Source of the DNA: an uncultured Sediminibacterium sp.
Lineage (GTDB): Bacteria; Bacteroidota; Bacteroidia; Chitinophagales; Chitinophagaceae
Assembly (NCBI GenBank): GCA_964460235.1
Contig: CAYWPM010000009.1
Coordinates: 28,189 to 92,188, forward strand
DNA: 64,000 nucleotides
Direction of reading: 5' to 3'
In this document: positions 16,622 to 48,993 of the stretch, one piece after another
Position numbering within the stretch: position 1 is the first letter of the stretch
Layout of the letters: every line of letters begins with the position of its first letter
Translations under genes and position numbers: made by a program
Notes under the pieces: generated by a model
What the model saw: only the letters and a program-made list of their open reading frames with translations
What the model was told of the DNA's origin: nothing
Databases searched by the model: none

Positions 16622-16694
16622 GGTGCGGTAGCTCAGTCGGTAGAGCAAAGGACTGAAAATCCTTGTGTCGCCGGTTCGATCCCGGCCCACACCA
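16622..16694 (+). tRNA. tRNA-Phe (GAA)
   Basis: 73-nt cloverleaf: D arm GCTC/GAGC, anticodon arm AAGGA-CTGAAAA-TCCTT, T arm GCCGG-TTCGATC-CCGGC. CCA is not encoded. Confidence 0.97.
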
Positions 16695-16696
16695 CA
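16648..16696 (+). repeat. att core copy in the intact tRNA
   Basis: AAGGACTGAAAATCCTTGTGTCGCCGGTTCGATCCCGGCCCACACCACA, identical to 48945-48993. Confidence 0.97.
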
Positions 16697-30212: not shown

Positions 30213-33053
30213 TTAACCATTTAGTAACCCCCCAATTGTTGACGTAATTGTTATTCTCTCTGTTTTTAGAATTACATACTCCCAAGGCTTTGTAATTCCG
30301 TACTTCCCTACGTTTTTTGTTACTATTTCGCAATACCTCTCCGCTGTTGTTTTCTTTGCCTGCACATCGAAGTCATCTATTTCACTTCCAGGCTTCACTT
30401 CAATAAGTACAATTTTGTTTTCAAGCTCAACAACAAAATCTGGTTCATATCTGTGATGAGAATTGCCCAATTCGTCTCTCCAAAACAAACCTTCAAACTG
30501 TCTTGGTGATGGGCGAAGCCAGTCTTCTACTGCCGGGTCTTTATCTAACAAATAAGCTAACCGAACTTCATCTGACGAATCAAAGCGATACATTGAGTGA
30601 CAGGCTTTAGAGAAACCGGTATATATTAAATCCTTTGAAAAACGGTTTATTTGTGATTCAAGGGTTACAGGTTTTTCTTCCTGTGTCTTCGAAATATTGT
30701 ATGGATCTAAGTATGGACGGGGCTCCCCAATAGTGGATTCCAAAAACCCTTCTGAGAGATATTTATTATGAGCAACAATTTGGTCATAGATTTCTTTAGC
30801 AATCTGACGAAAGTTGTTTTCAATCATCATTTTTAAAGAATTATCATCACTTACAAAAGTCCTATAGTATTCAGTAGCTTGATTAGCAAGCTTTAATAGA
30901 AGTGGGGTTTGATTTGGATCTTCGTAATCAACCAACGGAAAATCAACCAATGCTGCAATGATGGTATTTTCTGGACTTTGTGCTCTTCCCTCTCCTAAGC
31001 TTGAAACTCTTGTTTGTTCCTTCTCTGGGGCGCCAGCAGTTGTATTGCCAAATAAATCTAATTCGCCCTTGGCCTGTAATCGCTGAGTTAAAATGGATGT
31101 TTCAGAGGAGTAGCGAGTAAGTTTTGAAGTATTCAAATCAAAATCTTCAATAGTAGCTTCTCCATAATTAGGAGTAAGTATGAGGCGTGGAATAGCAATA
31201 TTTCTAACCTCAATAGCCTGCGCAGATTGACGGCTAATATTTTGTAATTCTTTTCTAACTGGTTCACTAAAATTATTAAACAGCGTTCCTTCTTCAAAAG
31301 ACAAATCTGCTACTAAGCTTTGAGCTTCTTTTTGATTATTAAAATCAGTAAAGCTTCTTTGAGAAATGGTCTGTTTGGCAATAGCTTCTACATATTCATT
31401 TGTTTTCGTCTGAATGGTCGCTTCAATCACATCCTTTGGTGTATCTTCTTGAACTAAGGATGATATTGCTTTAGCTGCTTGTGCAACTAGCTCTTTCATC
31501 ACAACCTCATTGGAACGAATATTGTCTTGAATGCTTACAACGGCAGCGGATTGAACTTCAATAACCTGTTTAATTGATTTTGTTTCTTCTGTAGTAACGT
31601 TTTCAATATTTGTTGGCTGAATAAGTTTTGAGTCCTTCGCTTGTTCTATAATCTTTGCATAGTTATCATGGGCAACAATCATAACTCTATCAACATATTT
31701 GTTTCCGGTTCTTTCTCCATAAGGTAAACGGAGGCCTCGACCAATGGTTTGTTCAGTTAATATTTCTGAAGCAGAAGATCGGATTGGAGCAATAGTATAA
31801 ATGTTTGCAACATCCCACCCCTCCTTAAGCATATTTACATGAATAACAATTTCAACAATATTATCCTTGTCTTCTAACGAAATTAATTTTTCAATAGTTT
31901 CATCTGCTTCCTCACCTTTAGTTTTTGTATGCACCTCAATAACCTTCCCCATGTATGCACCTCCCCTAAACTTATCGCTATCTATCAAAGCACGAAGTTC
32001 AGATGCGTGAGTAATATCTTTTGCTACCACAAGCATTACCGGCTTAATTACTCTTTTATTATTTTCATAGGCATATTCCTTTAGTGCTGTTTTTGTACGT
32101 TCATGAAAATATGCAGCCAGTTGTAATTTACGAGCATCAGTTTCAATTGAGTTTGAATCCCATTGATTAAAGTTTACATCTGCTTCAGTGCCTACCCATG
32201 GATCTTTTACGAATCCATCTCTAATAGCATTCCCAAGTGGATAGCTATAGAAAATATTTTTCATTAGTTCGGGCTCTTTCGTTTTTCCTCGCCCTATTGT
32301 GTTTCCTGTATAAGGGGTAGCAGTAAATTCTAAGCCAAAAAGAGGATCAATTCGGTCAAGTGAACCTAATGCCGCATCTGCATGATAATGATGCGATTCA
32401 TCCATTAAAACAACTAAGTCATTTAATGAGGATAGATAGTCAAAATATGATTCGCCAAGGGTTTCACTGAATTTAGTAATCCCCTTCTCTTGCTCAATGT
32501 CTTTTTGCGCAAACTGCTGAATATTAAATATATTTATTTGAATCTCATTTCCAAAAAGACTAGCGTTTGCTTGATTTTGTTCAAAATTATCTTTAGTGAT
32601 AACCCTTGCAGAGCTACTGTTTATTTCTTCTATTCCTCGAAAAACGTATTTTGGATTATTTGATCTGCTGAAATCTTCAACTAACTTTCTATATATAGTA
32701 TTTCCCGGAGCAACCACCATAAAGTGCTGAATTCCATACACTAAATGTAGATAAGCAACAAACGCACCCATAAGTCGAGTCTTTCCCACTCCTGTAGCAA
32801 GAGCAAATGTGTAGGCAGGAAACGTTCTCTCAAACGCTAAAAAGTCTTTTGTTTCGGGTTTTAATTCTACATAAGCCTTTGTGGCGTTTTCGATATTAGC
32901 ACAAGAGCCCCTGTGCTCTCGATTTAATCGAGTTAACATCATTTGCCCAGCATCAGATTCTAGGTATTCAGAAAATAGTACGAGACTTTGCGCTTGTGGG
33001 GTACGCAAACTCATTGCATTTATAATATATTGAAGCGCTTGTGGATTTGTCAT
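30213..33053 (-). CDS. Type III restriction enzyme Res subunit
   Basis: ATGVGKT, DESHHY, MLKEGWD, EQTIGRGLR and C-terminal YEPDFVV...IEVK. Confidence 0.9.
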   Translation of the reverse strand: MTNPQALQYIINAMSLRTPQAQSLVLFSEYLESDAGQMMLTRLNREHRGSCANIENATKAYVELKPETKDFLAFERTFPAYTFALATGVGKTRLMGAFVAYLHLVYGIQHFMVVAPGNTIYRKLVEDFSRSNNPKYVFRGIEEINSSSARVITKDNFEQNQANASLFGNEIQINIFNIQQFAQKDIEQEKGITKFSETLGESYFDYLSSLNDLVVLMDESHHYHADAALGSLDRIDPLFGLEFTATPYTGNTIGRGKTKEPELMKNIFYSYPLGNAIRDGFVKDPWVGTEADVNFNQWDSNSIETDARKLQLAAYFHERTKTALKEYAYENNKRVIKPVMLVVAKDITHASELRALIDSDKFRGGAYMGKVIEVHTKTKGEEADETIEKLISLEDKDNIVEIVIHVNMLKEGWDVANIYTIAPIRSSASEILTEQTIGRGLRLPYGERTGNKYVDRVMIVAHDNYAKIIEQAKDSKLIQPTNIENVTTEETKSIKQVIEVQSAAVVSIQDNIRSNEVVMKELVAQAAKAISSLVQEDTPKDVIEATIQTKTNEYVEAIAKQTISQRSFTDFNNQKEAQSLVADLSFEEGTLFNNFSEPVRKELQNISRQSAQAIEVRNIAIPRLILTPNYGEATIEDFDLNTSKLTRYSSETSILTQRLQAKGELDLFGNTTAGAPEKEQTRVSSLGEGRAQSPENTIIAALVDFPLVDYEDPNQTPLLLKLANQATEYYRTFVSDDNSLKMMIENNFRQIAKEIYDQIVAHNKYLSEGFLESTIGEPRPYLDPYNISKTQEEKPVTLESQINRFSKDLIYTGFSKACHSMYRFDSSDEVRLAYLLDKDPAVEDWLRPSPRQFEGLFWRDELGNSHHRYEPDFVVELENKIVLIEVKPGSEIDDFDVQAKKTTAERYCEIVTKNVGKYGITKPWEYVILKTERITITSTIGGLLNG

Positions 33054-33084
33054 AAGAAAATAATTTTGCTAAATCTTAATTAAA

Positions 33085-34683
33085 TTACTCGTAATCTTCT
33101 TCTTCAAAATCTTCAAATTCAGCTTCTTTAATGGGTAATAAATAGTCTTTTTTACCAAATTGGCAAGCCTTTAGAATTGATTGTGGTATTTTTTTGATTG
33201 TAATTCTTTGATCTAATCTTTCACATCCTGGTTCATATTTTTTAGGGCAAATTAAAAGGGTCTCATTTGTTTGCAAATGAGTTGCTATTTGTTGAACCAT
33301 TGCTACCGTAAGAAGTTGAGTTGTAATATAAATACTATTGTTACCCTGACCCTTTCCGTGTTTCCAATATTCTGTAGAGCTAGGAGCGAATGTATAGTTA
33401 GATAGCTTACACATAGCTTTAATTAGTTTTGTGTTATCGTAATAACTATCAATTACGTTATTTCCGAATTCGTCAACTGTTATGAAACTAGGTGATAATT
33501 CATAAAACCTATATCCACCACCACCTTTCCAAGATACCATCTCTGAAACGCCTCCATCATCAATACCCGAAACAACTTTATCTAGTCGGACTTTGCAGTG
33601 TGTATAAGCATGATCTCCCATTTCAATTCCTATATATTGTCGATTCATTTTGTGTGCTACGGCTATAGTAGTTCCAGAACCAAGAAATGAGTCTAATACT
33701 ATCTCACCCTCATCGGTTGATAACTCAATTATTTTCTTAATTAACCTTTCTGGCTTAGGTGTTCTAAAAAGACTAGTTACTGGAATATCAGGAAAAAGTT
33801 TTTTGAGTTCATATTTTGCCTGTCTATTGTGCCCGGTTTCATTTACATCTACCCATAGGGTTGAAGGAGGTAAGCCCTCCATATCTTTCAAATAAGTTCG
33901 TCTAATTAGCCTTGTTTGATCTTCTGAAAATCTAATTTCACCAGTTTTCATTTTTTCCAGTATTGTTTCATAAGACCATCTCCAACCATTTGGTGGATGT
34001 TTAATAACATTTCCATTAGGCGTAGTTATATTATATTGCAGTGTAGGTCTAAGTCCCGGATTGTTTACGGGGTTTCCATCAAACCAAGGCCCCCTTGGAT
34101 CATTGTCTGGATTTTTAAAATGCTTTCGCTTAGCATCGTCATTTAAGAATTTAGGTCGCCATCCTGGTTTCTTGCTATAAACCAAAATTTGATTGTGATC
34201 CAAGGAGAACTGAGTAACATTATTATTGCTGTTATCTGTTGTTTTCCAAATGACCGTAGCCACAAAGCATTGCCTACCAAAAATCTCATCACATAGGACT
34301 TTGCAATAGTGGACTTCATTTTCATCAAGAGTTATCCAAATACTTCCATCCTCAGACAATAGAAGGTTTAAAATTTCTAATCTGGGCTTCATTAGACTAA
34401 GCCAAGAGGAATGTTCAACACTATCATCATAATGTTCAAAGGCATTCCCTGTATTATAAGGAGGGTCAATATAAATACATTTAATAGCGCTTTCAAATTC
34501 GGGAAGGAGTGCTTTCAAAGCAAGTAGATTGTCCCCATGAATCAGCATGTTTTTACTGGAAACATCTCCAAAAGAAAGCTCAATATTCTCCTCAATTATT
34601 CGAGGTTCAACATTTGAAATATTATATTCAGGATTTTTCTTTCCAATCCATGATAACTCCAGCTTTTGATTATTAGTACTCAT
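33085..34683 (-). CDS. Type III adenine DNA methyltransferase (Mod)
   Basis: YIDPPYNTG, TPKPERL and DSFLGSGTT motifs; start taken at MSTNNQK. Confidence 0.92.
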   Translation of the reverse strand: MSTNNQKLELSWIGKKNPEYNISNVEPRIIEENIELSFGDVSSKNMLIHGDNLLALKALLPEFESAIKCIYIDPPYNTGNAFEHYDDSVEHSSWLSLMKPRLEILNLLLSEDGSIWITLDENEVHYCKVLCDEIFGRQCFVATVIWKTTDNSNNNVTQFSLDHNQILVYSKKPGWRPKFLNDDAKRKHFKNPDNDPRGPWFDGNPVNNPGLRPTLQYNITTPNGNVIKHPPNGWRWSYETILEKMKTGEIRFSEDQTRLIRRTYLKDMEGLPPSTLWVDVNETGHNRQAKYELKKLFPDIPVTSLFRTPKPERLIKKIIELSTDEGEIVLDSFLGSGTTIAVAHKMNRQYIGIEMGDHAYTHCKVRLDKVVSGIDDGGVSEMVSWKGGGGYRFYELSPSFITVDEFGNNVIDSYYDNTKLIKAMCKLSNYTFAPSSTEYWKHGKGQGNNSIYITTQLLTVAMVQQIATHLQTNETLLICPKKYEPGCERLDQRITIKKIPQSILKACQFGKKDYLLPIKEAEFEDFEEEDYE

Positions 34684-34688
34684 GTTTC

Positions 34689-37664
34689 TTATATTATTTT
34701 CCACCGAATTGTAAAAAGATTTTCAACTATTGCTTTCTGTTTTAGTCGAGCCTCTATTGTTTCAAGTAATTGTTCTTTTTTGATTTCAACTTCATCCTGC
34801 GCTTCATAAAGTTTTCTTCTCATTTCATTTCGCTTTTTCTCCATATCCTTAATCTCTCTCTGCGCTTTTAACTTTTCTTCCAGATTAATAATCTTCTTTG
34901 CAATTGTTTTTGCAGTTTTAATATCAATATCAATTTTTTTGAGATCGAGCTCTAATCCTTTTTTTACATCATCAGACCAGCTATCCAACTTCTCAACTTC
35001 ATCATCAAAGAAATCTCCATTTCTTTCAGCGATTTTACCGGAGACAAAAGTAATAAACTGTTGTTCCAGTTCAGAAAGCTTTTGTTTCTCTGTTTCAGAA
35101 ATAGAAGTAGAAGTTATTCCGTTCGTGGGAAGAGAGAAGATTTTCTTTATTATATCAGATTCAATTGGATTATTCGATTCATCAAATGCCGAAAGAATAA
35201 TGTTGTCTTCATCTTCAAAAGCAGAAACGGTATAGTTTGAAACTTTCAATACACCTCCTTTGCCAATATAGGGTTCTAATACTGAAATTTTCGAAATGTT
35301 ATTTGAATAGTCAAAGGTAATTTCTGCTTCTTCTACCTTTTTTGCTTTCACATCCTTTAAGATGCGTTGAGCCAAAGAATGTCCGGGTCGATAGATGTGA
35401 GCATCATCTACATTCTTTCCTATGCGATAAGGGCCAGGATCAATGTGTTCATTCGGAAATGGGCTTTCTTTCAATGAAAAAGAGTATTCGTTTTCTGCAA
35501 ACTCTGCCCTATCGTTTAAATAGTATCTGGTAACATCCCACAACCAACGATTATAAGTAGATAAGAAAGCTTCTCCTTCACGTTTATTGATTTTGAGTTT
35601 ATCGTGTACTTCTGTATCAAAGTTTTCCAAAAGCTTTTGTCGTGTGTCTGACAAGCTGCTTTGGATGCTTTCATCCATTTCATATTGAAGTTCATCAAAG
35701 GCTTTGTTTATATCTTCTGACGTTCGGCAGGTTTGATATATACCTGCGATACGTTTCTCAAAATCTACACCAGACTCAATAGTTCCTAATACCTCGTCAC
35801 TTGCACCAAATACTCCTTTAAAGAGCTTGAATTTTATATCTAAAAGATCATATACACGTTGGTCTGCGGCGTTCTTTCTATTAACAAAGTTAATCACCAC
35901 TACATCGTGCTTTTGTCCGTAGCGATGGCAACGACCAATTCGCTGCTCAATTCTTTGCGGATTCCATGGTAGATCATAGTTAATAATGAGAGAGCAAAAT
36001 TGAAGATTAACTCCTTCAGCACCTGCTTCAGTTGCAATCATTATTTCTGCTTCTTCTTTGAAGTAGTCGATAAGGGCGGCACGAGTATCGGCTGTTTTAG
36101 AGCCTGTTATCTTATCGGTATCTTTATTGCGAGCAAGCCAGTTTGTATATATTTCTTTTGATTTGTCATCATTGTTAGAGCCATTAAACAAGACAATTTT
36201 TCCTTTATAACCATTGTTAGCCAAAAGTGTTTCAGAAAGATATTTCTGAGTAATTGTAGATTCGGTAAAAATGATGGCCTTCTTTTTAGCACCGAGTTCT
36301 TGTGTCATTTCAAACCCTTTTTTAAGGGCTGTGAGTAACGCCTCACCTTTAGAGTTTGTAAAAATGTTCTGTGCTAAATCACGAAAGCGAATAAGGTCAG
36401 CTTTTTCTTGCTCCATTGCCACTATGTCTTCTGGAGTAAAAGCTTTCTTTTCCTTTGCTCCTTTTTCATCCTCATCGTCCTCATCTTCATCAATCCAGTC
36501 ATCGGCAAGGTCTTCAAATGTTTCGAAGTTTTGCTCTAAGCCTTCAATTGGTATATCGGTTGGCGTTGCATTCGCTTTTGCCTCTTTTATCAATTCGCCC
36601 ACCTTATATACTAAGCCGTTAAGTGTGCTTGCAATAGCAAATGAGGAAGAAGCTAAAAGTTTTCTCAAAATGAGTGTCATCAATTGTCTCTGACTAAACG
36701 GAAGTGCATAGAGCTTTGGTCTTTGTAAATACTCGGACATTCCATCATAGAGTTCTGTCTCATGGTCTGTTGGGATATAGTCTTGCGTTATTGGCTTTCG
36801 TTCCGTGTAGTTAATGTATTCCAATACCTGTCGGCGGAGTGTTCGAATACAAACGGGCTTTAGGCGGTTTCGCAAGTCATTGAACATCTCTTGCTTCGGC
36901 TCAATGAGTCCGACTTCGTTTTCATAGATATCCTGTTCTTTTGATACCCGAGCATAGTTTGATTTGAAACTTTTTAAATCACCGAATACGTGGTCATCAA
37001 TAATACTTACTAACCCATATAGTTCTAAAAGCGAATTTTGCAGTGGTGTTGCGGTGAGCAGAATTTTAGGAGCATCAACTAATGCATTCTTTATTTCACG
37101 AGCAATTTTATTGCTTGTCTTATAGACGTTTCTGAGGCGATGCGCCTCATCAATAATAGCGAGATCCCACTTAGTTTGTTTTATATACGGTGCTTTTGCA
37201 CGAGCAAAGTGATATGAACAGATAACGATTTGCCCATCTTGATTGAAGGGATTTAAGTTTACGTCTTTGATATATTGATTGAATGATTTTGCTTCAAGGA
37301 TAATGGACGGCAAGAAGAATTTTTCGAGCAATTCATCATTCCATTGTTTTCGCAAGCTTGAAGGAACAATCAAAAGAATTTTTCTCTTTCGTTCCGCCCA
37401 CTTCTGAGAAAGTACCAATCCGGCTTCAATCGTCTTTCCGAGACCCACTTCATCAGCTAATATTGCTCCTTTTGATAATGGTGATTTAAACGCGAACAAA
37501 GCAGCCTCAATTTGATGCGGATTTAAGTCTACCTGAGCATTTGAGAGGGTTGAGGAAAGCTTTTCCAGGCTATCAGAGGCACAACGCTTGGTAAGCTCAT
37601 ACGCAAAGTATTTCGCATGGTAATCACTGAGTCCGTGGTTTTGCCGGCCTTGAGCAGAGGTCAT
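34689..37664 (-). CDS. SNF2-family helicase co-transcribed with mod-res
   Basis: DEVGLGKT, DEAH, TATPLQN, EGVNLQ and EQRIGRCHRYGQ motifs; 5-nt gap to mod. Confidence 0.92.
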   Translation of the reverse strand: MTSAQGRQNHGLSDYHAKYFAYELTKRCASDSLEKLSSTLSNAQVDLNPHQIEAALFAFKSPLSKGAILADEVGLGKTIEAGLVLSQKWAERKRKILLIVPSSLRKQWNDELLEKFFLPSIILEAKSFNQYIKDVNLNPFNQDGQIVICSYHFARAKAPYIKQTKWDLAIIDEAHRLRNVYKTSNKIAREIKNALVDAPKILLTATPLQNSLLELYGLVSIIDDHVFGDLKSFKSNYARVSKEQDIYENEVGLIEPKQEMFNDLRNRLKPVCIRTLRRQVLEYINYTERKPITQDYIPTDHETELYDGMSEYLQRPKLYALPFSQRQLMTLILRKLLASSSFAIASTLNGLVYKVGELIKEAKANATPTDIPIEGLEQNFETFEDLADDWIDEDEDDEDEKGAKEKKAFTPEDIVAMEQEKADLIRFRDLAQNIFTNSKGEALLTALKKGFEMTQELGAKKKAIIFTESTITQKYLSETLLANNGYKGKIVLFNGSNNDDKSKEIYTNWLARNKDTDKITGSKTADTRAALIDYFKEEAEIMIATEAGAEGVNLQFCSLIINYDLPWNPQRIEQRIGRCHRYGQKHDVVVINFVNRKNAADQRVYDLLDIKFKLFKGVFGASDEVLGTIESGVDFEKRIAGIYQTCRTSEDINKAFDELQYEMDESIQSSLSDTRQKLLENFDTEVHDKLKINKREGEAFLSTYNRWLWDVTRYYLNDRAEFAENEYSFSLKESPFPNEHIDPGPYRIGKNVDDAHIYRPGHSLAQRILKDVKAKKVEEAEITFDYSNNISKISVLEPYIGKGGVLKVSNYTVSAFEDEDNIILSAFDESNNPIESDIIKKIFSLPTNGITSTSISETEKQKLSELEQQFITFVSGKIAERNGDFFDDEVEKLDSWSDDVKKGLELDLKKIDIDIKTAKTIAKKIINLEEKLKAQREIKDMEKKRNEMRRKLYEAQDEVEIKKEQLLETIEARLKQKAIVENLFTIRWKII

Positions 37665-37841
37665 AATAATCGGGATTCTAACACTTTAAAGTTCAAAAAC
37701 AAAGACAAAACTACTGGTTTAGTTGGGGGTTATTTCATATCACCTTGGATATCAATAAATAAGCCTCTGGTCTCCTTCATTTCCGAGTGGTATGTCTAAA
37801 TCAGCAGTTATATTATAAAGGTATGATATGCGTGGTTTATC

Positions 37842-39017
37842 TTAAAGAAGAGTTTTTGCGCTAAACGCCCGACTGGTCATGCCATCAATCATCAACTTGA
37901 GATAAATTGAATAGCGAGGAAGGTTTATGAGATCTTCTGCTGTAAAAACGGGGTGAAAAATCTGAGATATGGTTTCGGCATCTTTTGCACCAATTTGGAA
38001 GCAAATAAGTGTTCCAACGTTTCCCAAAATGGACTCTTGGGTTTCTATAGGAAACTGATCTAGATATTGATTTGATAGAAATAAGCCGAGTTTAAATTTT
38101 CTGCACTCGGAGAGCATTTGAGCAAACGAAGTGGTTACAAATGTGTGTGCCTCATCTATAAAAAGAAAAAATGGCTCACGTTCTTCTTCAAGCAATCGTG
38201 CTTTCTTCATTGAAGCAATTTGGATGCAGGTTATAAGCATTGAACCGAGAAATGAACATGCTTGTTCGCCTATATGTCCTTTACTGAGATTGACGATGAG
38301 GATTTTCTTTTGATTTACAATGTCATTTATTGAAATACTTCCAGATCGTTGACCAATAATTCTCTTGATAACATCATTTGCAATAAAAGCACCGGATTTA
38401 TTTAATATGGCCGATACCGCTTCGCTTTTTAAACTTGGGCTGTATTTATCAAACTCATCATGCCAAAAAGATAAAATTGATTGATCAAATATTGAATTAA
38501 GCATTCCCTCTCGATAGTCTTTATCTGTTAAGAGAGGTTGAATATCCAAAAGGGTTGTGCCGGGGTTTTCTAAGAGAGTTAAAATACAAAAACGAAGAAT
38601 GTATTCTAATCGGACGCCCCATGAGTTTCGGAATATGTTTTGATATACAGATACAATCTCAGATGCGAGAAGGTGTTTCTGGTCTAATTGTTCATCAAGA
38701 GGGTTAAAGGAAATGAGGTCATTTGTATTTGTTGCATCGAAATACACAAGATCATCCTTTCGACTTTCTGGTACATATTGCACTAAAAGGCTTGCAAGTT
38801 GTCCGTGGGGGTCAATTACGCATACTCCGTGCCCATGGCGCATATCTTGGATGGCCATATTCTGAAGCAGTGTAGATTTACCTGTACCGGTTTTCCCAAA
38901 GCAAAAGATACCCGTGTATCGGTCTTTTGTTTTAATACCAAACCGCTGATTTGTATTACGCCAATTTGTTTGTGCAAAGTAGGTGATCGAATTGTCAGCA
39001 TGATGTTGTCTTTCCAT
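37842..39017 (-). CDS. Second coupling-protein-like ATPase (TrwB/VirD4/DUF87-like)
   Basis: GKTGTGKST, IDPHG, FNPL and LFIDEAH motifs; start taken at MERQHH. Confidence 0.8.
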   Translation of the reverse strand: MERQHHADNSITYFAQTNWRNTNQRFGIKTKDRYTGIFCFGKTGTGKSTLLQNMAIQDMRHGHGVCVIDPHGQLASLLVQYVPESRKDDLVYFDATNTNDLISFNPLDEQLDQKHLLASEIVSVYQNIFRNSWGVRLEYILRFCILTLLENPGTTLLDIQPLLTDKDYREGMLNSIFDQSILSFWHDEFDKYSPSLKSEAVSAILNKSGAFIANDVIKRIIGQRSGSISINDIVNQKKILIVNLSKGHIGEQACSFLGSMLITCIQIASMKKARLLEEEREPFFLFIDEAHTFVTTSFAQMLSECRKFKLGLFLSNQYLDQFPIETQESILGNVGTLICFQIGAKDAETISQIFHPVFTAEDLINLPRYSIYLKLMIDGMTSRAFSAKTLL

Positions 39018-39129
39018 CTCATACCTAATCTTATGAAACGTACTCGAATACTGAAGCCTGAAAATTATTTGCCTACTACAAACTATTACCTCATAATCAA
39101 TTTTATACTGCTTATCCTTATTACTACGA

Positions 39130-40026
39130 TTAACCAAGTTGATTGAGTGGATGCTTAATAATTTGACCACGAAGGTGTTCAGTTGTCGCTGAAAGGTAAA
39201 TAGTTGTTGTAGTGATATCAGAATGTCCCATCATTTTAGAAAGACTGAAAATGTCACATCCTCCTTCTAACATAAGAGTAGCGAACGTGTGGCGTAGCTT
39301 ATGAATACCAAATTCAATACCTGAAATTTTCTTTAGCTGGCTAACTATTATTTGAAGCACACGCTCATCTATTTTGCACTTCCCTCTATCGGTTGCAAAA
39401 AACTCGGGACAAACAACATGATGCTTTGCCCTTTCTTCCAGATAGGACTTCAAACTTTGCGCAAGTCCAATAGACATTGGTATAACCCGATCTTTTTTCC
39501 CCTTGCCCCAACGAACAAAAACCGACAGATTTTCAATATCAACATCTGTAAACTTCAAATTTAATAATTCGCTTTTCCGAAGACCTGCGAATAAAAACAT
39601 AGAAAACATGGCGTGGTTTCTCTTACGAATAAATCTTGTCTTATATGGGTAGTTATATACTATGTCAAGAATTCTTAATGCCTGCACTTTTGAAAGCCCT
39701 TTCGGAAGACTTGTTTCTTTCTTGGGACGCTGAATATTATCGATAGGATTAAATGTTAATAACCGATTAGCGATGCACCATTTAAAGAAAACATTAAGAG
39801 TAATGCGAATACAACTAAAACTTGATGATTTCCAATGCTGAATTGTCATACCATTGAGAAAGTATGATCGAACGTTCTCTTCGGTTATTTCAGAGCACTG
39901 GCTAATATTCGCATGTCTTATATAGGATCGGAGGGTCTGTTTATATCGCCTTATTGTGGGCAATGAGTAATTAAGTAAATATTGAGACTCTTGATAAAAT
40001 TTTGATGCTGCAATACTGATATCCAT
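39130..40026 (-). CDS. XerC/D-like tyrosine recombinase A
   Basis: GLRKSEL, GKGKKDR, HKLRH and MGHSDITTTTIY give a full catalytic set. Confidence 0.93.
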   Translation of the reverse strand: MDISIAASKFYQESQYLLNYSLPTIRRYKQTLRSYIRHANISQCSEITEENVRSYFLNGMTIQHWKSSSFSCIRITLNVFFKWCIANRLLTFNPIDNIQRPKKETSLPKGLSKVQALRILDIVYNYPYKTRFIRKRNHAMFSMFLFAGLRKSELLNLKFTDVDIENLSVFVRWGKGKKDRVIPMSIGLAQSLKSYLEERAKHHVVCPEFFATDRGKCKIDERVLQIIVSQLKKISGIEFGIHKLRHTFATLMLEGGCDIFSLSKMMGHSDITTTTIYLSATTEHLRGQIIKHPLNQLG

Positions 40027-40592
40027 TGAATAACTCTTCCAACCCTAAATTGACACTTACCCATTAAAGTGATTTAATTACAGTCATGTTCGGAAATTTC
40101 AACTACCTGTTTATTTTGAAAAGTAGTATCTGCGGAGTCAAAAACTACGATTCTCCCTTTTCTTATAAGCCTTTTTATCAGTTAAGCTAAGTACCTGATT
40201 ATGGGAGATAAACTAGGATGTCTCTTTCTCTTAAAATAGCTTTATTTATCAAACTATTTTCGACAATTGATAGGTTTTCCGAATCACATTGCAACTACCC
40301 GTTTTCAGTCACTTTTTGTGTCAGTTTAAGCCTCCGACAGGAGGCATTTAGGATAGGAAATTAATTTAAATAATAAGTACGGGTTAGATTTATTATACTT
40401 TAAAACTGCGTCGTATCCAACCTATAGATTTTATCTAGGATACAGTTTTGAACCCATTTCTTAAAAATCGAATAAAATTAAAACAGCATATTTATTTATC
40501 TTTTTCTTCTTGTTTCCGTGCTTGTAAAACGGATGATAATTATTGGCATTTGTATATAATATTCCCTAATTTGTTATATAATCGAATAGTAA

Positions 40593-42293
40593 ATGCCAAC
40601 TATCCATCGTCTCAATATTAAAAATTTTCGAGGAATTAAGTCTTTTGAACAAATATTTTCATCTGACTTTGTTTGCCTTATTGGAAGAGGAGATGTAGGT
40701 AAGTCAACTATTTTGGAAGCTATATCACACGTACTTTCTCCTAACTGGAATATTACATACTATGATAATGATTTTTATAATTGTGACTTAAATAACACAA
40801 TAGAAATTGAAGCAATTATAAAGGATTTACCAGCAACACTCATAACTGAAGAAAAATTTGGCGGATATATTAATGGCTTAAATACTGATACAAACAAAAT
40901 CGAAGAGGAACTAGAAGATAATCATGAAAAGGTACTTACTATTCGTCTGGAGGTAGATAAAGATTTAGAACCTAAATGGAGTGTTGTGTGTGACAGACAT
41001 GACCCTAAGCCAATATCTGCAACGGATCGAGGTAAGCTAAATATGTTTATGACTGCTGATTCAGTAGATCGTCACTTCTCATGGAGTAAAGGAAGCCCAC
41101 TTTATACGCTATTTAAAGATGTTGAAGGAACAACTTCAATAGAGGAGAATTTAATACTCGATGTATTAAGAACTGCGAAGACATCTATCGATGGATCTTT
41201 CTCTAAATTGGACGCTACGACACAGGTTATTAAGGGAGTAGCTTCAATAATGGGGCTTGAGCTCAATAACGCAAACACAACAATTGATTTCAGAGATATT
41301 GCTATTCGCGACAGTAAAGTTTGTCTTCATGATGGCAAAATTCCATTAAGATTAAAAGGGAAAGGATCTCGCCGCTTGGCCTCTATAGCAATACAAACTG
41401 CTATAGCTGCATCTGGAGGGATCATTTTGATTGATGAGATCGAACAAGGGCTAGAGCCGGATAGGGTTCAGAACCTTGTGAGCATTCTCAAAATGCAAAA
41501 TGAAGGCCAAATATTTATTACAACACATTCAAGAGATGTAATTGTTGAACTTGAAACAAAGGATTTATACTTATTAAGTACTAATGGTTCAAAACTAACG
41601 CCAATTGCCTCAGATTTGCAGGGTGTTATTCGTGCAAATCCAGAGTGCATGTTCGCGAATAAGATTTTGGTATGTGAAGGCGAAACGGAAATAGGTGTCT
41701 GTAAAGCTTTAAACAACTTTAGAATTAGCACTGGCAAGAAAAATGCAGCCCATCTTGGGGTTAGGTTTGCAAAAGGTGTAGGTAGTGCCTTTATAAAATA
41801 TAGTAAAAGTTTCAAAGCACTTGGATTTCCAACAGCGGTCTTTTGTGATTCAGATGATGCTGGCATTAATGCCGAGAAATCCGAATTAACACGTTTAGGT
41901 ATAACAATTTTTGACTGGGAGATTGGCGATTGCCTGGAAGTTGCATTATTTAAAAGTGCTTCAGTTGATTTGGTTAAGAAAATGCTTGACTTAGCTGCAC
42001 AAATAATTGGTGAAGAGAATAATATTTCTGCAAATACAGCATTTGAACAACAAATTAAAACAAGCATTTCGAGTAAAACGGGTAACTCATTTCCACAACT
42101 CCTTTCGAATGAAGTTTTAACAAACGAAATGCGCATAGCGATTGGGGTGTCGGCATCTAAAAAAAACTGGTTTAAAAGAATTTCAAAAGGTGAACGATTG
42201 GGTAATCTCTTATTTGCAAATCAGTCAGAGCTAGGGCCTGCAGTGATACAAATGTTTTCTCGACTAGAAGAGTGGATTGATAATGGATCATAA
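40593..42293 (+). CDS. gajA: Gabija GajA-like OLD-family ATPase/TOPRIM nuclease
   Basis: IKNFRGI, GRGDVGKST, LIDEIEQGL, TTHS; TOPRIM VCEGETE and DSD. Confidence 0.82.
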   Translation: MPTIHRLNIKNFRGIKSFEQIFSSDFVCLIGRGDVGKSTILEAISHVLSPNWNITYYDNDFYNCDLNNTIEIEAIIKDLPATLITEEKFGGYINGLNTDTNKIEEELEDNHEKVLTIRLEVDKDLEPKWSVVCDRHDPKPISATDRGKLNMFMTADSVDRHFSWSKGSPLYTLFKDVEGTTSIEENLILDVLRTAKTSIDGSFSKLDATTQVIKGVASIMGLELNNANTTIDFRDIAIRDSKVCLHDGKIPLRLKGKGSRRLASIAIQTAIAASGGIILIDEIEQGLEPDRVQNLVSILKMQNEGQIFITTHSRDVIVELETKDLYLLSTNGSKLTPIASDLQGVIRANPECMFANKILVCEGETEIGVCKALNNFRISTGKKNAAHLGVRFAKGVGSAFIKYSKSFKALGFPTAVFCDSDDAGINAEKSELTRLGITIFDWEIGDCLEVALFKSASVDLVKKMLDLAAQIIGEENNISANTAFEQQIKTSISSKTGNSFPQLLSNEVLTNEMRIAIGVSASKKNWFKRISKGERLGNLLFANQSELGPAVIQMFSRLEEWIDNGS

Positions 42294-43701
42294 AACCTTT
42301 ATAGAGAAACGAAAGGCATTAGCTATTGCACCTGCTGGGCATGGGAAAACTCATGCAATAACCGATTGCATGACTCAGATATTAGGTCGACAACTTATTT
42401 TAACGCATACCCACGCAGGTGTTGCGTCTTTGAGAGATAAATTAAAAAAACAAAATATTTCCTCAAAAGCATATAACCTCGAAACAATAACGAGTTATGC
42501 GCAAGCAATTGTACAAAATTTTTATACTGGAAAAGATATTCCCCCGCCAGAATCTGGTAAAACTTATTATGCATTCCTTATTGAAAAGGCAACGAGCTTG
42601 CTTAACAAGAAACCCATTAAAGATGTAATTGCGGCAACATACAAAGGCTTATTTGTTGATGAATATCAAGACTGTACAATCTCGCAACACACCTTTATTA
42701 TGAAACTGTCCGATATTCTCTCAACAAGAATTTTTGGTGACCCGCTCCAAGGTATTTTCGGTTTTAGTGAAGCGCTCGTAGATTTGAATGATAAAGAACA
42801 AATGGGTGATTTTTTAGAAGATAGAATTACCCTAAGTACACCATATAGATGGCGCGGTGTAAATGAAAATCTTGGAGAAACTCTAAAATCAATAAGAGTA
42901 GAGTTAGAATCAACAGATTCAGTTGACCTTTCTAAATATAGATTGGGCATGGAATTAATAATAGCCCCGGAAGCTGACTTATATAATGGGCAACGCGATT
43001 ATCATAAAAAAATCATAAGTCTACTAAACGATGAAAGTATTTTAATTATTGATCCAGATAGCACCAGTGTAACACCTCGAATAAAGAAAATCTCAAGTTT
43101 CCAAAATCGAATTAGATTAATCGAATCTATTGATGATAAATCATTTTATGACATTGCTAAAAAAATTGACCTAATCTCAACAGAAGATTCACCTTCAAAA
43201 AAAATCCGAGATTTAATAGCTGAATTACTTAGCCCTGATTCAATAATTAACCAATGGTTTGACTCCAACGGACTTAAATCATTTAAAAAGGAAGAAAAAA
43301 GGCAAGCTATACAAAAAGTAAAAGAAAGTTTAGATGATTTTTCACAGTCAAGAGATATTTCCAAAATTCCCCTCATTCTAAAAGGGGTAGAAAAATTGCC
43401 CAATATTAAATCTTATAGAAAAGAGTTATTTAAGGTTATATGTAGTGCCATTTATTTTGCAAAAGAAAACAATGTAACAGTTTATGAAGCTGTAGTAGTT
43501 ATACGGAATAAAACTCGGCGTGCAGGTAGAAAAGTTATTGGAAGGTGTATTGGAACAACTTTGCTTACGAAAGGGCTTGAGTTTGATACGGTAGTTGTTT
43601 TGAACGCACAAAAATTTGATAAAAAAAACTTTTACGTTGCGCTTACTCGTGCAAGAAAAAAACTTGTTGTTTTTGCAAATCAAAATGTCCTTTCATTTTA
43701 A
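42277..43701 (+). CDS. gajB: Gabija GajB-like UvrD helicase
   Basis: APAGHGKT, DEYQD, GDPLQ, KGLEFD and YVALTRA motifs; overlaps gajA by 17 bp. Confidence 0.82.
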   Translation: MIMDHKTFIEKRKALAIAPAGHGKTHAITDCMTQILGRQLILTHTHAGVASLRDKLKKQNISSKAYNLETITSYAQAIVQNFYTGKDIPPPESGKTYYAFLIEKATSLLNKKPIKDVIAATYKGLFVDEYQDCTISQHTFIMKLSDILSTRIFGDPLQGIFGFSEALVDLNDKEQMGDFLEDRITLSTPYRWRGVNENLGETLKSIRVELESTDSVDLSKYRLGMELIIAPEADLYNGQRDYHKKIISLLNDESILIIDPDSTSVTPRIKKISSFQNRIRLIESIDDKSFYDIAKKIDLISTEDSPSKKIRDLIAELLSPDSIINQWFDSNGLKSFKKEEKRQAIQKVKESLDDFSQSRDISKIPLILKGVEKLPNIKSYRKELFKVICSAIYFAKENNVTVYEAVVVIRNKTRRAGRKVIGRCIGTTLLTKGLEFDTVVVLNAQKFDKKNFYVALTRARKKLVVFANQNVLSF

Positions 43702-43761
43702 GAGTTTCGTATATCGGTCTTTTTATTACTTGTTTTGTAAAAGACTCAGATTAATAAACCA

Positions 43762-44697
43762 TTAAATAAAATCATCTATCATCATGTTTTCAACATCTGC
43801 TCTCATTTCATGAGTAGGTAAACAACGTAAATAAACAAGAGTCATTCTAATATCTGAATGTCCCATTAGTTGTTTTAGTTTAACAACATTATTACTTGAT
43901 TTCAGGAAGTTGACTGCAAAGGTGTGTCTAAATTGATGCAAATGAAATTTTATCCGTGAAGTTGCTTTAATTTTTTTTACTAACAGGTCTAAGCCGTCAT
44001 AACTTAATCGTTGATCTTTATACCTAGAGACGAATAAAAATGCCGTACTGTAATGGCGGCGTTCCTTTAGATAGTCTTTGAGATACATGCAAACGTGTGC
44101 ATGTAACGGTATAATTCTTGTGCGAGGAATTTTTGAGTTTTCCGCTCGCACAGTTAAAACCTTCCGTTCCATATCAATATCTCTTATTTGCAATAGCAAT
44201 AGCTCCTCACGGCGAAGGCCGCAAAAAAGAAGAGTATAAAACAGCGCAAGGTTTCTTTTCCTAAGTAACAGATTATTGCTTGAGTGATAATGTACTGCGG
44301 TCATTATTTTTTCAACTTCTTCCTTTTTGAGATACTTCAAATTGTCATAAACGACTGAAGGCCTCCGCATACCTAAAAAAGGACTTTCTGATATGTACTT
44401 TCGTATGCGTAGCCATTCAAAGAAATTATGCAACTTGCTCCAATACGTTCTAACTGTGGATTTTTTGATACCCTCTTGAAGTAAGCCGAAATGGCGTGTT
44501 CGTTTTCTATCTTCAAGTGTTTTAAAAAATCTAGTTATCATGATTGGCGTTAATGTTTCTAACGTTAAATCCGGAATAACTTTCATAAGAAGCTTAAATG
44601 TTTCTTTATACCCTCGAATAGTCTCAGGTCTAAGTTTCCTAGAATATTCGCATTCAAGAATATATTCATCAAAAAGCTGATAAATGGTTTTTCTCAT
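43762..44697 (-). CDS. XerC/D-like tyrosine recombinase B
   Basis: GLRREEL, HQFRH and MGHSDIRMTLVY motifs. Confidence 0.93.
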   Translation of the reverse strand: MRKTIYQLFDEYILECEYSRKLRPETIRGYKETFKLLMKVIPDLTLETLTPIMITRFFKTLEDRKRTRHFGLLQEGIKKSTVRTYWSKLHNFFEWLRIRKYISESPFLGMRRPSVVYDNLKYLKKEEVEKIMTAVHYHSSNNLLLRKRNLALFYTLLFCGLRREELLLLQIRDIDMERKVLTVRAENSKIPRTRIIPLHAHVCMYLKDYLKERRHYSTAFLFVSRYKDQRLSYDGLDLLVKKIKATSRIKFHLHQFRHTFAVNFLKSSNNVVKLKQLMGHSDIRMTLVYLRCLPTHEMRADVENMMIDDFI

Positions 44698-44734
44698 ACT
44701 ATCAAAACCTTATCATTCTTTTATGACATTTTTA

Positions 44735-45365: not shown

Positions 45366-45425
45366 AACTGTTAGACATACATACAATGTGAAAGACACTG
45401 TTCTTTCACAATTAAATCAATTTGT

Positions 45426-46675: not shown

Positions 46676-46703
46676 TCTTTCTTATTGGATCTAAATTAAA
46701 AAC

Positions 46704-47486: not shown

Positions 47487-48797
47487 CTATAAATTGACTA
47501 CCGATTCAAGAGCATCGTCTGCTTCCTTGTGAGTGAAATTCGATTGATAGCCTATAGTTGTTGTTACCGAGGAATGTCGGTACAGCTTTTGGAGCATTTG
47601 TATTGGTATACGATCTCCACTAATATTTCCAAAAGTGTGACGAGCGATATGCATTGTAAGTGTTTTTTCTATACCCGCTGCTGGTGCAACGTGTAATCGA
47701 AGGCACTTATCAATTTTACTCGTTTCGTCAGCAATCTTTTTTTGAATGGCGAAGCTATCTTCGCTTTCACTCAGTTTTTCTAACTCAGGGAATATATGTG
47801 CTTCCGAACTCTGTTTCCCTTTTTTATACCTGCTCAAAATAGCATGAGCTTTTTCGGGGAGCTTTAATGAGCCAGTCTTTTGGTTTTTCCCCATCGCATA
47901 ATAGAGTCGATTGTCTTTAATATTCGACCATCGTAAACGGAGAATATCTGACACCCGCATTCCGGCTAAATAGAAAGAAAATAACCAAAGGTTTCGTGCA
48001 TGAGCCTCTTTAGATCCTTCGGGAAATTCTAGTGCTTCTATTTGTTTAACCTCCTCTTCGGTTAGTCCTATTTTATTTGACGGAGGAAATTTGATTGAAA
48101 TTTTACCTTCTCCAAATGGAGAATCTGCTTTTACTGCTGCTCCTTCTTTTACTGCAAGGCTGAAGACAGATCGGATAGCAACAAGGTGATTGATGATTGA
48201 GCGTTCGCTCAATACGCTTTTCTTTATTAGGCGTTTTTCCAGATTCCGCATTTTTTTCCCTGGCTTTTTCTCCTCTACATTATACGTGATCTTATATTCA
48301 CTTTTCAGATAGAGTTTGAATTGTTGCAGGAGCGACACGGTTATATCAAAAAAGGCTTTATCGCTGTTTTTTAAGAATGTCTTAAAATGCTTTATTCGAG
48401 GTTTGTCGGCGGTATATTGATTGTATTTTCCGGCTTTTTGAAGGTTTTCAAGGTATAAATCTGCGATTGGAAAAAAGGTCAATCCCCTTTTCGGTTTAAT
48501 TTTTTGCTTTACTGCTTGGGAGCTCACCTTCTTTTCTTTCACTTCAAGGTCAATGGATGCAGCACTCACTTCCGCGATTCGTTTCACTATGAGGTTGTTC
48601 AAACGGGCAGAATTGGGGTGATTCTTTTTAACCCGCTGTTCTTTCGCGTCCCATTCAGTAGTCTTGATTTTGTGCCCAATATACATGAAGGAGGACTTAC
48701 GATCTGTGGTTATGCGGATGGCAAGCGGGAAAGTAGTTGGTAGTGTTCCATCCTTGTTTTTCTTCTGCCGAAGGATTACCTTTATTGATGAAGCCAT
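47487..48797 (-). CDS. Tyrosine integrase of the island (arm-binding, SAM-like and catalytic domains)
   Basis: Start MASSIKVILR; AGMRVSD, MGKNQK, HIARH and LYRHSSVTTTIGY motifs; adjacent to the att copy. Confidence 0.95.
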   Translation of the reverse strand: MASSIKVILRQKKNKDGTLPTTFPLAIRITTDRKSSFMYIGHKIKTTEWDAKEQRVKKNHPNSARLNNLIVKRIAEVSAASIDLEVKEKKVSSQAVKQKIKPKRGLTFFPIADLYLENLQKAGKYNQYTADKPRIKHFKTFLKNSDKAFFDITVSLLQQFKLYLKSEYKITYNVEEKKPGKKMRNLEKRLIKKSVLSERSIINHLVAIRSVFSLAVKEGAAVKADSPFGEGKISIKFPPSNKIGLTEEEVKQIEALEFPEGSKEAHARNLWLFSFYLAGMRVSDILRLRWSNIKDNRLYYAMGKNQKTGSLKLPEKAHAILSRYKKGKQSSEAHIFPELEKLSESEDSFAIQKKIADETSKIDKCLRLHVAPAAGIEKTLTMHIARHTFGNISGDRIPIQMLQKLYRHSSVTTTIGYQSNFTHKEADDALESVVNL

Positions 48798-48824
48798 AGC
48801 CACATTGAGTTTTAGAGCTATTAA

Positions 48825-48846
48825 GGTACAACATAGGTACAACAAA
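48825..48846 (+). repeat. Candidate integrase arm-type site, right copy
   Basis: Identical to 16746-16767. Confidence 0.8.
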
Positions 48847-48944: not shown

Positions 48945-48993
48945 AAGGACTGAAAATCCTTGTGTCGCCGGTTCGATCCCGGCCCACACCACA
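48945..48993 (+). repeat. att core copy (3' half of tRNA-Phe)
   Basis: 49/49 identity to 16648-16696. Confidence 0.97.

What the first reader, a model, noticed from the sequence alone, without database searches (positions are those of the whole stretch)
39130..44697. Gabija inserted in opposite orientation between two co-oriented, catalytically intact Xer-like recombinases
The recA-like naming does not apply: these are recombinases A and B, both on the minus strand, which look like a tandem pair split by a plus-strand gajAB cassette. The 566-bp gap at 40027-40592 holds CAACTACC twice (40100, 40292) and a GCCTCC-GACA-GGAGGC hairpin (40330-40345), which are candidate recombination sites. This may be a recombinase-served slot that swaps, excises or inverts defence cassettes.
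Basis: partly seen in the sequence, partly recalled or inferred. Interest (0 to 1): 0.62.

Follow-up and report, generated by a model that had tools for sequence, protein, structure and literature searches.

The report
Gabija beside a two-recombinase attachment module
The two recombinase genes around the Gabija anti-phage genes are the conserved pair that normally flanks the attachment site of a widespread family of tRNA-targeting mobile islands, and Gabija sits in the short spacer where related elements also keep varied defence genes.

Summary
In detail: intact gajAB (+ strand) lies between two minus-strand, catalytically intact Xer-like recombinases. I call them RecB (43762-44697) and RecA (39130-40026).

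Comparison of 159 related loci shows what the pair is.
- In 47 of 60 co-oriented RecB->RecA loci the genes are only 317-749 bp apart.
- That gap is a conserved module: an AACAGGTCRT-type site (L), a tRNA 3'-half-like core, and a palindromic site (R).
- In CPR and other genomes the same genes lie at opposite ends of 1.8-9 kb islands, bounded by perfect 40-47-nt tRNA repeats. The gap is therefore attP.

The module lies inside a 32-kb tRNA-Phe mobilisable island that has its own integrase, and its tRNA-like core has decayed.

gajAB lies between the RecB stop and site L. Ten of the 13 other cargo-bearing loci hold cargo at the same position (PDC-S06, PDC-M43, a DRT reverse transcriptase, a kinase, HEPN, IS21).

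But all the sites lie on one side of gajAB and no repeats flank it, so recombinase-driven cassette swapping is not shown.

This scan found the same two-recombinase family earlier in CPR tRNA-Lys islands.

The parts
16648..16696 (+). attL core of the 32-kb host island (3' half of tRNA-Phe, gene at 16622-16695)
   Evidence: Perfect 49-nt direct repeat with 48945-48993. tRNA-Phe by ARAGORN. GC drops from about 0.50 to 0.30-0.43 between the repeats.
48945..48993 (+). attR core of the host island
   Evidence: Second copy of the 49-nt repeat.
47487..48845 (-). Island integrase (Arm-DNA-bind_5 + SAM_5 + Phage_integrase), the likely integrase for the tRNA-Phe site
   Evidence: Pfam. It lies next to attR.
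43762..44697 (-). RecB, simple Xer-like tyrosine recombinase (311 aa); the partner that sits at the distal end of related integrated islands
   Evidence: It lies inside the att repeats of integrated relatives.
43717..43745 (.). AT-rich hairpin in the 60-nt convergent gap between the gajB stop and the recB stop; possible bidirectional terminator
   Evidence: Sequence. Fold is weak, z = -0.7. Function is inferred only.
42277..43701 (+). gajB (UvrD-like helicase)
   Evidence: PADLOC GajB 2.4e-128, full length. Pfam UvrD domains.
40593..42293 (+). gajA (ABC ATPase + OLD-like Toprim nuclease)
   Evidence: PADLOC GajA 8e-163, 1-563 of 570. Pfam AAA_15/AAA_21 + OLD-like_TOPRIM.
40305..40592 (.). gajA upstream region plus the remnant of the ancestral recB-distal spacer, including the TTATTATTTAAAT-type motif (about 40355-40385) and the GCCTCC-GACA-GGAGGC hairpin (40330-40345)
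   Evidence: Sequence. Similar AT-rich motifs follow the recB stop in cargo-free loci. Hairpin z = -5. The homology of this spacer is weak.
40292..40304 (-). Site L of the attP-like module (minus strand reads AAACGGGTAGTTG)
   Evidence: Aligns with the AACAGGTCGT-type L sites of 8 related loci. It is one of only two exact copies of the 13-mer.
40113..40291 (-). Central segment that holds a tRNA 3'-half core in relatives; decayed here
   Evidence: Alignment A3. No match to any of the 37 host tRNAs above shuffled controls. No second copy in the genome.
40100..40130 (-). Site R: imperfect palindrome (ACTAC-N16-GTAGT) holding the second 13-mer, about 75-85 nt upstream of the recA start
   Evidence: Aligns with the RACGACC-N16-GGTCGTY sites of relatives.
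39130..40026 (-). RecA, simple Xer-like tyrosine recombinase (298 aa); in relatives, the integrase that sits just downstream of the target tRNA gene
   Evidence: A tRNA gene lies 27-207 nt upstream and co-oriented in about 30 loci.
37842..39170 (-). FtsK/HerA/TraD-like ATPase that travels with the recombinase pair in Bacteroidota-type loci
   Evidence: Pfam TrwB_AAD_bind/DUF87. PADLOC mad8 5.7e-20. Adjacent to RecB or RecA in over 40 loci.
30213..37664 (-). Downstream co-oriented genes: DrmD-like SNF2 helicase (34689-37664), type III Mod (33085-34704), type III Res with a TnsA-like nuclease end (30213-33053)
   Evidence: These are context, not part of the recombination module.

Best explanation
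RecB and RecA are the two recombinases of a cross-phylum family of integrative islands that target the 3' half of tRNA genes.

In the circular or unrecombined form of such an island, the attachment site attP lies between the recB stop and the recA start. It consists of site L, a tRNA-half core and palindromic site R. After integration, recA lies next to the tRNA, recB lies at the far end, and the cargo lies between them.

In this window the module is carried unrecombined inside a 32-kb mobilisable island. That island is itself inserted in tRNA-Phe by a different, arm-binding integrase.

gajAB is an intact, self-contained Gabija defence operon. It has landed in the roughly 95-nt spacer between the recB stop and site L. 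This spacer is a permissive backbone hotspot where related elements hold other accessory and defence genes.

Shown:
- the family architecture and the att repeats in relatives;
- conservation of L and R;
- variable cargo at the same position;
- intact active sites in both recombinases.

Inferred:
- L and R are recombinase-binding (arm-type) sites;
- the two proteins act together;
- cargo enters the spacer by homologous exchange between the conserved flanks or by illegitimate recombination, not by a cassette-specific reaction;
- the window's module can no longer use a tRNA target, because its core has decayed.
For: - Adjacency: 60 RecB->RecA co-oriented loci, 47 of them with gaps of 317-749 bp.
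- Gap content: L site, tRNA 3'-half-like core (a full tRNA-Thr in L018, L023, L058 and L074) and palindromic R site.
- Integrated relatives: 14 loci read tRNA-RecA-cargo-RecB. Repeats of the tRNA 3' half are perfect or near-perfect: L016 45/45, L041 45/45, L061 44/44, L013 40/40, L045 43/44. Joining attR to attL in silico gives gaps of 364-395 nt, matching the observed gaps.
- Sites: AACAGGTCRT-type sites are about 7-fold enriched upstream of RecA. L, R and the palindrome partner share locus-specific variants: GGCC in L080 and L049, GTAGT in the window.
- Linkage: RecA and RecB distance matrices correlate (Mantel r = 0.41, p = 0.001).
- Host island: 49-nt tRNA-Phe repeats plus its own integrase.
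- Cargo position: between the RecB stop and the first site in the window and in 10 of the 13 other cargo-bearing loci.
- Cargo content: PDC-S06, PDC-M43AB, DRT UG17, PD-T4-6-like kinase, HEPN, IS21.
- No repeat flanks gajAB.
- Active-site residues are intact in both proteins.
Against: - No experiment or read data show that either protein recombines anything.
- RecA-only minimal islands exist (L065 1.8 kb, L052 3.4 kb), so RecB may not be needed for integration and its role is open.
- The tRNA-like core in the window is decayed and matches no host tRNA, and the core embedded in L049 does not match its host's tRNAs in full. The function of the module inside mobilisable islands is therefore uncertain.
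- One cargo locus (L027) does have a 15-nt direct repeat around its cargo, and the module or its genes occur in inverted arrangements in other loci. Site-specific events near the slot do therefore happen in this family.
The exact insertion junction of gajAB is not defined.
Confidence: 0.65

Rival explanations
1. One reading: the recombinase pair actively serves the slot between them. It captures, excises or inverts defence cassettes such as gajAB by site-specific recombination at the CAACTACC-type sites, making an integron-like or shufflon-like platform.
For: - Cargo between the pair is variable and rich in defence genes.
- The L/R sites are conserved.
- L027 cargo is flanked by a 15-nt exact repeat.
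- L063 and L047 show tandem accretion at tRNA-like cores.
- Inverted arrangements of the module and of recA exist in other loci.
Against: - In the window and in 10 other loci, all recognisable sites (L, core, R) lie together on the recA side of the cargo.
- Nothing of 10 nt or more is repeated across gajAB.
- The third CAACTACC-type 8-mer (43590, inverted, inside gajB) does not extend to the 13-mer, and its count is at chance level.
- Integron integrase models score far below cut-off (107 against 265 bits).
- The cargo units are full operons with their own upstream regions, not promoterless cassettes.
Confidence: 0.15
2. Inside mobilisable islands the pair has been re-purposed. Together with the adjacent FtsK/HerA/TraD-like ATPase it acts as a Xer/dif-like resolution or maintenance system on the palindromic R site, resolving multimers of the excised circular island. 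Gabija is then a passive insertion next to it.
For: - The ATPase is adjacent to the pair in over 40 Bacteroidota-type loci but absent from the small CPR islands.
- L and R are kept, with co-varying half-sites, even where the tRNA-like core has decayed (window, L011, L027).
- The two paralogous simple recombinases recall XerC/XerD, and the best structural relatives are XerA and XerD.
Against: - The att repeats in integrated relatives prove an integrase role for the family.
- The position and orientation of the ATPase relative to the pair vary.
- There is no evidence that these islands replicate as multimers.
- The arms of R are palindromic only in their outer parts, and the 16-nt spacing is unlike dif.
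Confidence: 0.12
3. The adjacency is accidental. RecB is the last gene of one integrated element and RecA is the first gene of a different one, piled up in tandem at the same tRNA-like site, with Gabija belonging to one of them.
For: - Tandem pile-ups do occur (L063, L086, L047).
- tRNA-derived fragments sit between the genes.
Against: - The same RecB-gap-RecA unit, with the same spacing, recurs in 47 loci from several phyla.
- The two proteins' divergences are correlated.
- In integrated islands both genes lie inside one pair of att repeats.
- The window's unit lies inside an island bounded by unrelated tRNA-Phe repeats.
Confidence: 0.05

Closest known systems
tRNA-gene (tDNA) genomic islands with tyrosine integrases (Islander-type; PMC4383910)
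   Same: The target is the 3' half of a tRNA gene. The island carries a replacement tRNA half. Perfect 40-47-nt att repeats bound the island, and the integrase gene lies next to the tRNA. All of this is seen in the integrated relatives.
   Different: There are two simple (arm-domain-less) Xer-like recombinases, one on each side of attP. Conserved AACAGGTCRT-type sites flank the core. Distribution spans CPR, Bacteroidota, Proteobacteria, Myxococcota, Chlamydiota and an archaeon at 50-60% RecA identity. In the window the module is embedded, unrecombined, in another island.
Variable-cargo hotspots in the conserved backbone of integrative conjugative or mobilisable elements and phage satellites (for example SXT/R391 hotspots; recalled from general knowledge, not read here)
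   Same: The flanking backbone genes are conserved, the inserts differ at one intergenic position, and many inserts are anti-phage systems.
   Different: Here the hotspot lies inside an attachment-site region, between a recombinase gene and its presumed binding site. The exchange mechanism is untested.
Gabija (GajA ATPase-Toprim nuclease + GajB UvrD-like helicase)
   Same: Two overlapping genes give full-length matches to PADLOC GajA and GajB models with the expected domains.
   Different: Nothing unusual in the system itself; only its location is of interest. This subtype is rare in the order (2 of 401 genomes searched). The other copy is not next to these recombinases, but a 40%-identical Gabija is cargo of an integrated RecA/RecB island in a Saccharibacteria genome (L045).
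XerC/XerD-dif and the fimB/fimE-fimS switch (paired tyrosine recombinases)
   Same: Two paralogous simple tyrosine recombinases are encoded side by side next to their presumed site.
   Different: Scores are far below the XerC/XerD equivalog cut-offs (175 against 335 bits), and the genome has its own Xer candidates elsewhere. No inverted repeats bound an invertible segment in the window. Orientation differences are seen only between loci.
Multi-recombinase elements: RIT (recombinase in trio), BIM, Tn554, GInt, strand-biased circularising elements (PMC3414803, PMC5385486, PMC10214605)
   Same: More than one tyrosine recombinase per mobile unit.
   Different: RIT has three abutting genes and terminal inverted repeats. 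BIM has one recombinase plus an SMC-like protein and is confined to Betaproteobacteria. Tn554 has a long TnpB. None is described as flanking a tRNA-half attP.

Membership tests
Gabija defence system | Adjacent GajA (ABC ATPase + Toprim) and GajB (UvrD-like helicase) genes | tested here: met
   PADLOC GajA 8e-163 (1-563 of 570) and GajB 2.4e-128. Pfam AAA_15/AAA_21 + OLD-like_TOPRIM, and UvrD domains. The genes overlap by 17 nt.
Tyrosine recombinase superfamily (simple, Xer-like) | Catalytic R-K-HxxR-H/W-Y, and a core-binding plus catalytic domain without an arm-binding domain | tested here: met
   The residues are invariant in alignments A1 and A2 and align to XerA 4a8e. Only SAM-like N and Phage_integrase domains are found.
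Chromosomal XerC/XerD dimer-resolution recombinases | Score above the NCBIfam equivalog cut-off, and a single-copy housekeeping context | tested here: not met
   RecA scores 175.6 against a cut-off of 335; RecB scores 115 against 330. Both lie in a low-GC island, and other Xer-like genes are found on contigs C2 and C5.
Two-recombinase tRNA-targeting islands (family defined here and in earlier notes of this scan) | The RecA homologue lies just downstream of, and co-oriented with, the target tRNA. RecB lies at the far end. Both lie inside direct repeats of the tRNA 3' half. | tested here: met
   Met in relatives L016, L041, L045, L061, L013 and L046. The window's proteins are 50-65% identical to these.
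Two-recombinase tRNA-targeting islands | In the window itself: a recB-attP-recA module with L site, tRNA-half core and R site | tested here: inconclusive
   The L and R sites are present and align. The core is decayed and matches no host tRNA.
Integron | IntI-type integrase with its extra domain, attI next to intI, and cassettes each ending in an attC hairpin | tested here: not met
   The integron integrase model scores 107 against 265 bits. No repeated attC-like element bounds gajAB. The cargo carries its own upstream region.
Invertible DNA switch (fimS- or shufflon-like) | Inverted repeats bounding the segment, and both orientations present in one population | not testable with these tools
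   No convincing inverted repeat lies around gajAB or the module. Opposite orientations are seen only between different loci. No reads are available.
RIT / BIM / Tn554 multi-recombinase elements | Three abutting recombinase genes with terminal inverted repeats (RIT); recombinase plus SMC-like gene (BIM); long TnpB plus TnpC (Tn554) | tested here: not met
   There are two genes only, about 380 bp apart in the ground state, and tRNA direct repeats instead of terminal inverted repeats.
Backbone hotspot of an integrative mobilisable element | Conserved flanking genes with different inserts at one intergenic position across related elements | tested here: met
   14 cargo-bearing loci, 11 of them with cargo between the RecB stop and site L. 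The contents differ.

The most novel reading that the evidence does not exclude
The recB-attP-recA unit may be a portable landing pad. Its tRNA-like core and L/R sites would let RecA/RecB-type islands and cassettes dock into any larger element that carries the unit. The pair would then work as an integron-like, cross-phylum (CPR to Bacteroidota to archaea) acquisition platform for defence genes, and the recB-to-L slot would be filled by a still unrecognised site-specific reaction.
Probability: 0.12. Interest if true: 0.8.

Novelty: new variant of a known kind. Interest (0 to 1): 0.5.

Why it matters
- Gabija itself is ordinary.
- The comparison shows that a very conserved pair of simple tyrosine recombinases flanks a tRNA-half attachment site. 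RecA averages about 60% identity across CPR bacteria, Bacteroidota, Proteobacteria and an archaeon.
- This pair forms a mobile unit that ferries defence genes.
- The unit also rides, unrecombined, inside larger mobilisable islands, where the spacer beside it has become a defence-gene hotspot.
- I found no paper describing this architecture in three library searches.
- If both proteins are needed, this would be a compact heteromeric integrase system with arm-type sites but no arm-binding domain. That is worth a biochemical look.
- The module is also a practical marker for finding new defence cargo in poorly studied phyla.

Tried and rejected
The closest homologues (66-73% identity, Logan contigs) could not be examined, so the exact gajAB insertion junction is undefined.
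- A global alignment of the 30 short gaps gave no usable consensus. The module was found only through tblastx and translated T-arm signatures.
- Rfam finds nothing in 37000-49500 of the window.
- BIM and RIT were considered from the literature and rejected. The Riemerella 10K island uses an IntN1-type integrase and is unrelated. Pipolins were considered and are not comparable.
- No RecA homologue was found in PLSDB plasmids or INPHARED phages.
- No second copy of the window's attP region and no tRNA match was found in the host genome.
- The embedded core of L049 does not match its host's tRNAs in full.
- The group I intron call for the interrupted tRNA-Thr genes in relatives is weak (12.7 bits against 50).
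- The inverted CAACTACC inside gajB (43590) was rejected as chance.


Full report
**1. What is in the window**

The finding lies in a low-GC block (0.30-0.43 against about 0.50) running from about 17 kb to 49 kb. The block is bounded by a perfect 49-nt direct repeat, at 16648-16696 and 48945-48993. The repeat is the 3' half of tRNA-Phe (16622-16695).

An arm-binding tyrosine integrase lies next to the right repeat (47487-48845). The block also encodes:
- a relaxase and a coupling protein;
- Shedu and a split AAA_13/PDC-S06 gene;
- a type III Res/Mod pair preceded by a DrmD-like SNF2 helicase and a FtsK/HerA/TraD-like ATPase;
- ArdC.

It is therefore a roughly 32-kb integrative mobilisable island loaded with defence genes.

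Gabija is intact by full-length PADLOC matches. RecA and RecB are 31% identical. They are simple Xer-like tyrosine recombinases with every catalytic residue conserved. They score far below the XerC/XerD and integron-integrase cut-offs, and the genome has other Xer-like genes elsewhere.

**2. The pair elsewhere**

Both proteins have hundreds of homologues at 50-70% identity, several on the same contigs. I fetched 80 loci around RecA homologues from species-representative genomes and 79 around RecB homologues from metagenomes. I mapped the window's proteins and the tRNAs on them.

| Arrangement | Loci | Spacing between the two genes |
|---|---|---|
| RecB followed by co-oriented RecA, short gap | 47 | 317-749 bp |
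| RecB followed by co-oriented RecA, with cargo | 13 | 1.2-8.1 kb |
| RecA, cargo, RecB (reverse order) | 14 | 3.5-9 kb |
| Convergent arrangements | 9 | 13 bp-1.0 kb |

The hosts are strikingly diverse: Patescibacteria/CPR, Bacteroidota, Gamma- and Alphaproteobacteria, Ignavibacteria, Myxococcota, Simkania and Methanoperedens. No homologue occurs in the plasmid or phage collections.

RecA is the more conserved partner (mean pairwise identity 60%, against 43% for RecB). The two distance matrices correlate (Mantel r = 0.41, p = 0.001), so the genes travel together.

**3. What the gap is**

Translating the short gaps revealed T-arm-like signatures. ARAGORN and Rfam call a complete tRNA-Thr about 30 nt upstream of RecA in L018, L023, L058 and L074.

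Reading the gaps and aligning them shows a common module with three parts:
- a site L of the AACAGGTCRT type, about 95 nt after the RecB stop;
- a central piece with a tRNA-Lys-like 3' half;
- a site R, about 50-65 nt before the RecA start. R is an imperfect palindrome (RACGACC-N16-GGTCGTY) whose right arm repeats L.

Such sites are about seven times more frequent in the 450 nt upstream of RecA than elsewhere in the loci. L, R and the palindrome partner also share locus-specific variants (GGCC in L080 and L049).

In about 30 loci RecA sits 27-207 nt downstream of, and co-oriented with, a tRNA gene (Thr, Lys, Ala, Pro or Val).

In the RecA-cargo-RecB loci the whole unit is bounded by repeats of the 3' half of that tRNA:

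| Locus | att repeat (matches/length) |
|---|---|
| L016 | 45/45 |
| L041 | 45/45 |
| L061 | 44/44 |
| L013 | 40/40 |
| L045 | 43/44 |

Site R lies between attL and RecA, and site L lies between RecB and attR. Joining attR to attL in silico gives RecB-to-RecA gaps of 364-395 nt. That is the size and order of the gap module.

The gap is therefore attP, and RecA and RecB are the recombinases that flank it. Minimal RecA-only islands also exist (L065 and L052), so the role of RecB is not settled.

Earlier notes of this scan (e1-841026, e1-843028) reached the same architecture from CPR tRNA-Lys islands. I reproduced it independently here.

**4. Reading the window with this key**

The two CAACTACC copies are the reverse complements of sites L (40292-40304) and R (40100-40130, with its palindrome partner ACTAC...GTAGT). 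They are 192 nt apart and in the usual order relative to RecA. The 13-mer occurs nowhere else in the window. All three half-sites carry the variant GTAGT instead of GTCGT.

The central core has lost its T-arm. It resembles no host tRNA more than shuffled sequence does, and it has no second copy in the genome.

gajAB, with about 290 nt of its own upstream DNA, sits between the RecB stop and site L. No direct or inverted repeat of 10 nt or more spans it.

The GC-rich hairpin at 40330-40345 is real (z = -5). It lies in what looks like the remnant of the ancestral RecB-distal spacer, it has no conserved counterpart, and I cannot assign it a role.

**5. Is the slot special?**

In 10 of the 13 other cargo-bearing RecB->RecA loci the cargo is in the same place, between the RecB stop and the first AACAGGTC-type site. 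Cargo identified in that slot:

| Locus | Cargo between the RecB stop and site L |
|---|---|
| Window | Gabija (gajAB) |
| L004 | PDC-S06 / AAA_13 |
| L083 | PDC-M43A/B |
| L010 | UG17-type defence reverse transcriptase |
| L027 | PD-T4-6-like kinase with a PP2C phosphatase |
| L012 | HEPN protein |
| L015 | IS21 |
| L044, L049, L076, L138 | unknowns |

In L073 and L047 the cargo follows a tRNA-Lys instead. L073 carries a caspase-helicase with a dCTP deaminase. L102, also unknown cargo, has no recognisable site, so its position could not be placed.

A different Gabija (40% identity) is ordinary cargo of an integrated island in a Saccharibacteria genome (L045). The only other copy of the window's Gabija type in 401 genomes of the order is not near these recombinases.

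The spacer is thus a recurrent defence-gene hotspot, comparable to backbone hotspots of conjugative elements.

There is some evidence that site-specific events happen nearby:
- a 15-nt repeat around the L027 cargo;
- tandem accretion at tRNA-like cores in L063 and L047;
- inverted modules or recA genes in some loci.

None of this is seen around gajAB.

**6. Verdict**

The mechanism proposed is not supported by the anatomy.

Best reading (0.65): gajAB is passive cargo in the recB-to-attP spacer of an embedded, probably retired, two-recombinase integration module.

Rivals:
- an active cassette platform (0.15);
- a re-purposed Xer/dif-like resolution system working with the adjacent ATPase (0.12);
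- accidental tandem ends (0.05).

Three literature searches and four papers gave no description of this architecture.

**Limits**
- There are no reads and no experiments.
- The closest relatives could not be fetched.

Noticed in passing
L010 about 6320-6500; L012 about 9680-9975; L015 about 9710-9970: tRNA-Thr(GGT) genes just upstream of RecA (or after RecB) are interrupted in the anticodon loop by a conserved insertion of about 220 nt. It looks like a group I intron. Rfam Intron_gpI spans the whole model but reaches only 12.7 bits (cut-off 50).
   Followed up: partly
window 16746-16770 and 48825-48849: A 25-nt direct repeat (GGTACAACA twice in tandem; 24 of 25 identical) lies just inside both ends of the 32-kb island, and one copy overlaps the integrase start. 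These are likely arm-type sites of the tRNA-Phe integrase.
   Followed up: no
window 44732-44746 and 45351-45365: A 15-nt repeat (TTWCAGACTGCAATA) flanks the 166-aa ORF 44836-45336, which has no Pfam, NCBIfam or PADLOC match. It lies upstream of both this ORF and ardC, so it may be an operator rather than a cassette boundary.
   Followed up: partly
window 30213-39170: recA is followed on the same strand by a FtsK/HerA-like ATPase (best PADLOC hit mad8), a DrmD-like SNF2 helicase (1.4e-206), a type III Mod, and a Res with a TnsA-like nuclease end. This RM-plus-helicase operon fits no single named system. A 38%-identical SNF2 gene directly follows RecA in a Doudnabacteria locus (L029).
   Followed up: partly
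L117, L118, L134, L111, L131 (metagenome contigs): A variant arrangement reads RecB-> tRNA-Lys <-RecA (convergent). In L118 a second, inverted tRNA-Lys copy lies 1.6 kb away. This suggests inversion between inverted att sites.
   Followed up: no
L063 5513-10885 (same contig as L086): The order is RecB-L-core-R-RecA1, then 2.3 kb, then a second core plus R plus RecA2 (67% identical to RecA1), with a truncated core fragment beside the full one. This is a tandem pile-up of RecA-type units at an embedded attP.
   Followed up: partly
L065 (about 1.8 kb) and L052 (about 3.4 kb): Minimal islands bounded by perfect 43-47-nt tRNA repeats contain RecA but no RecB. RecA alone may therefore suffice for integration.
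   Followed up: no
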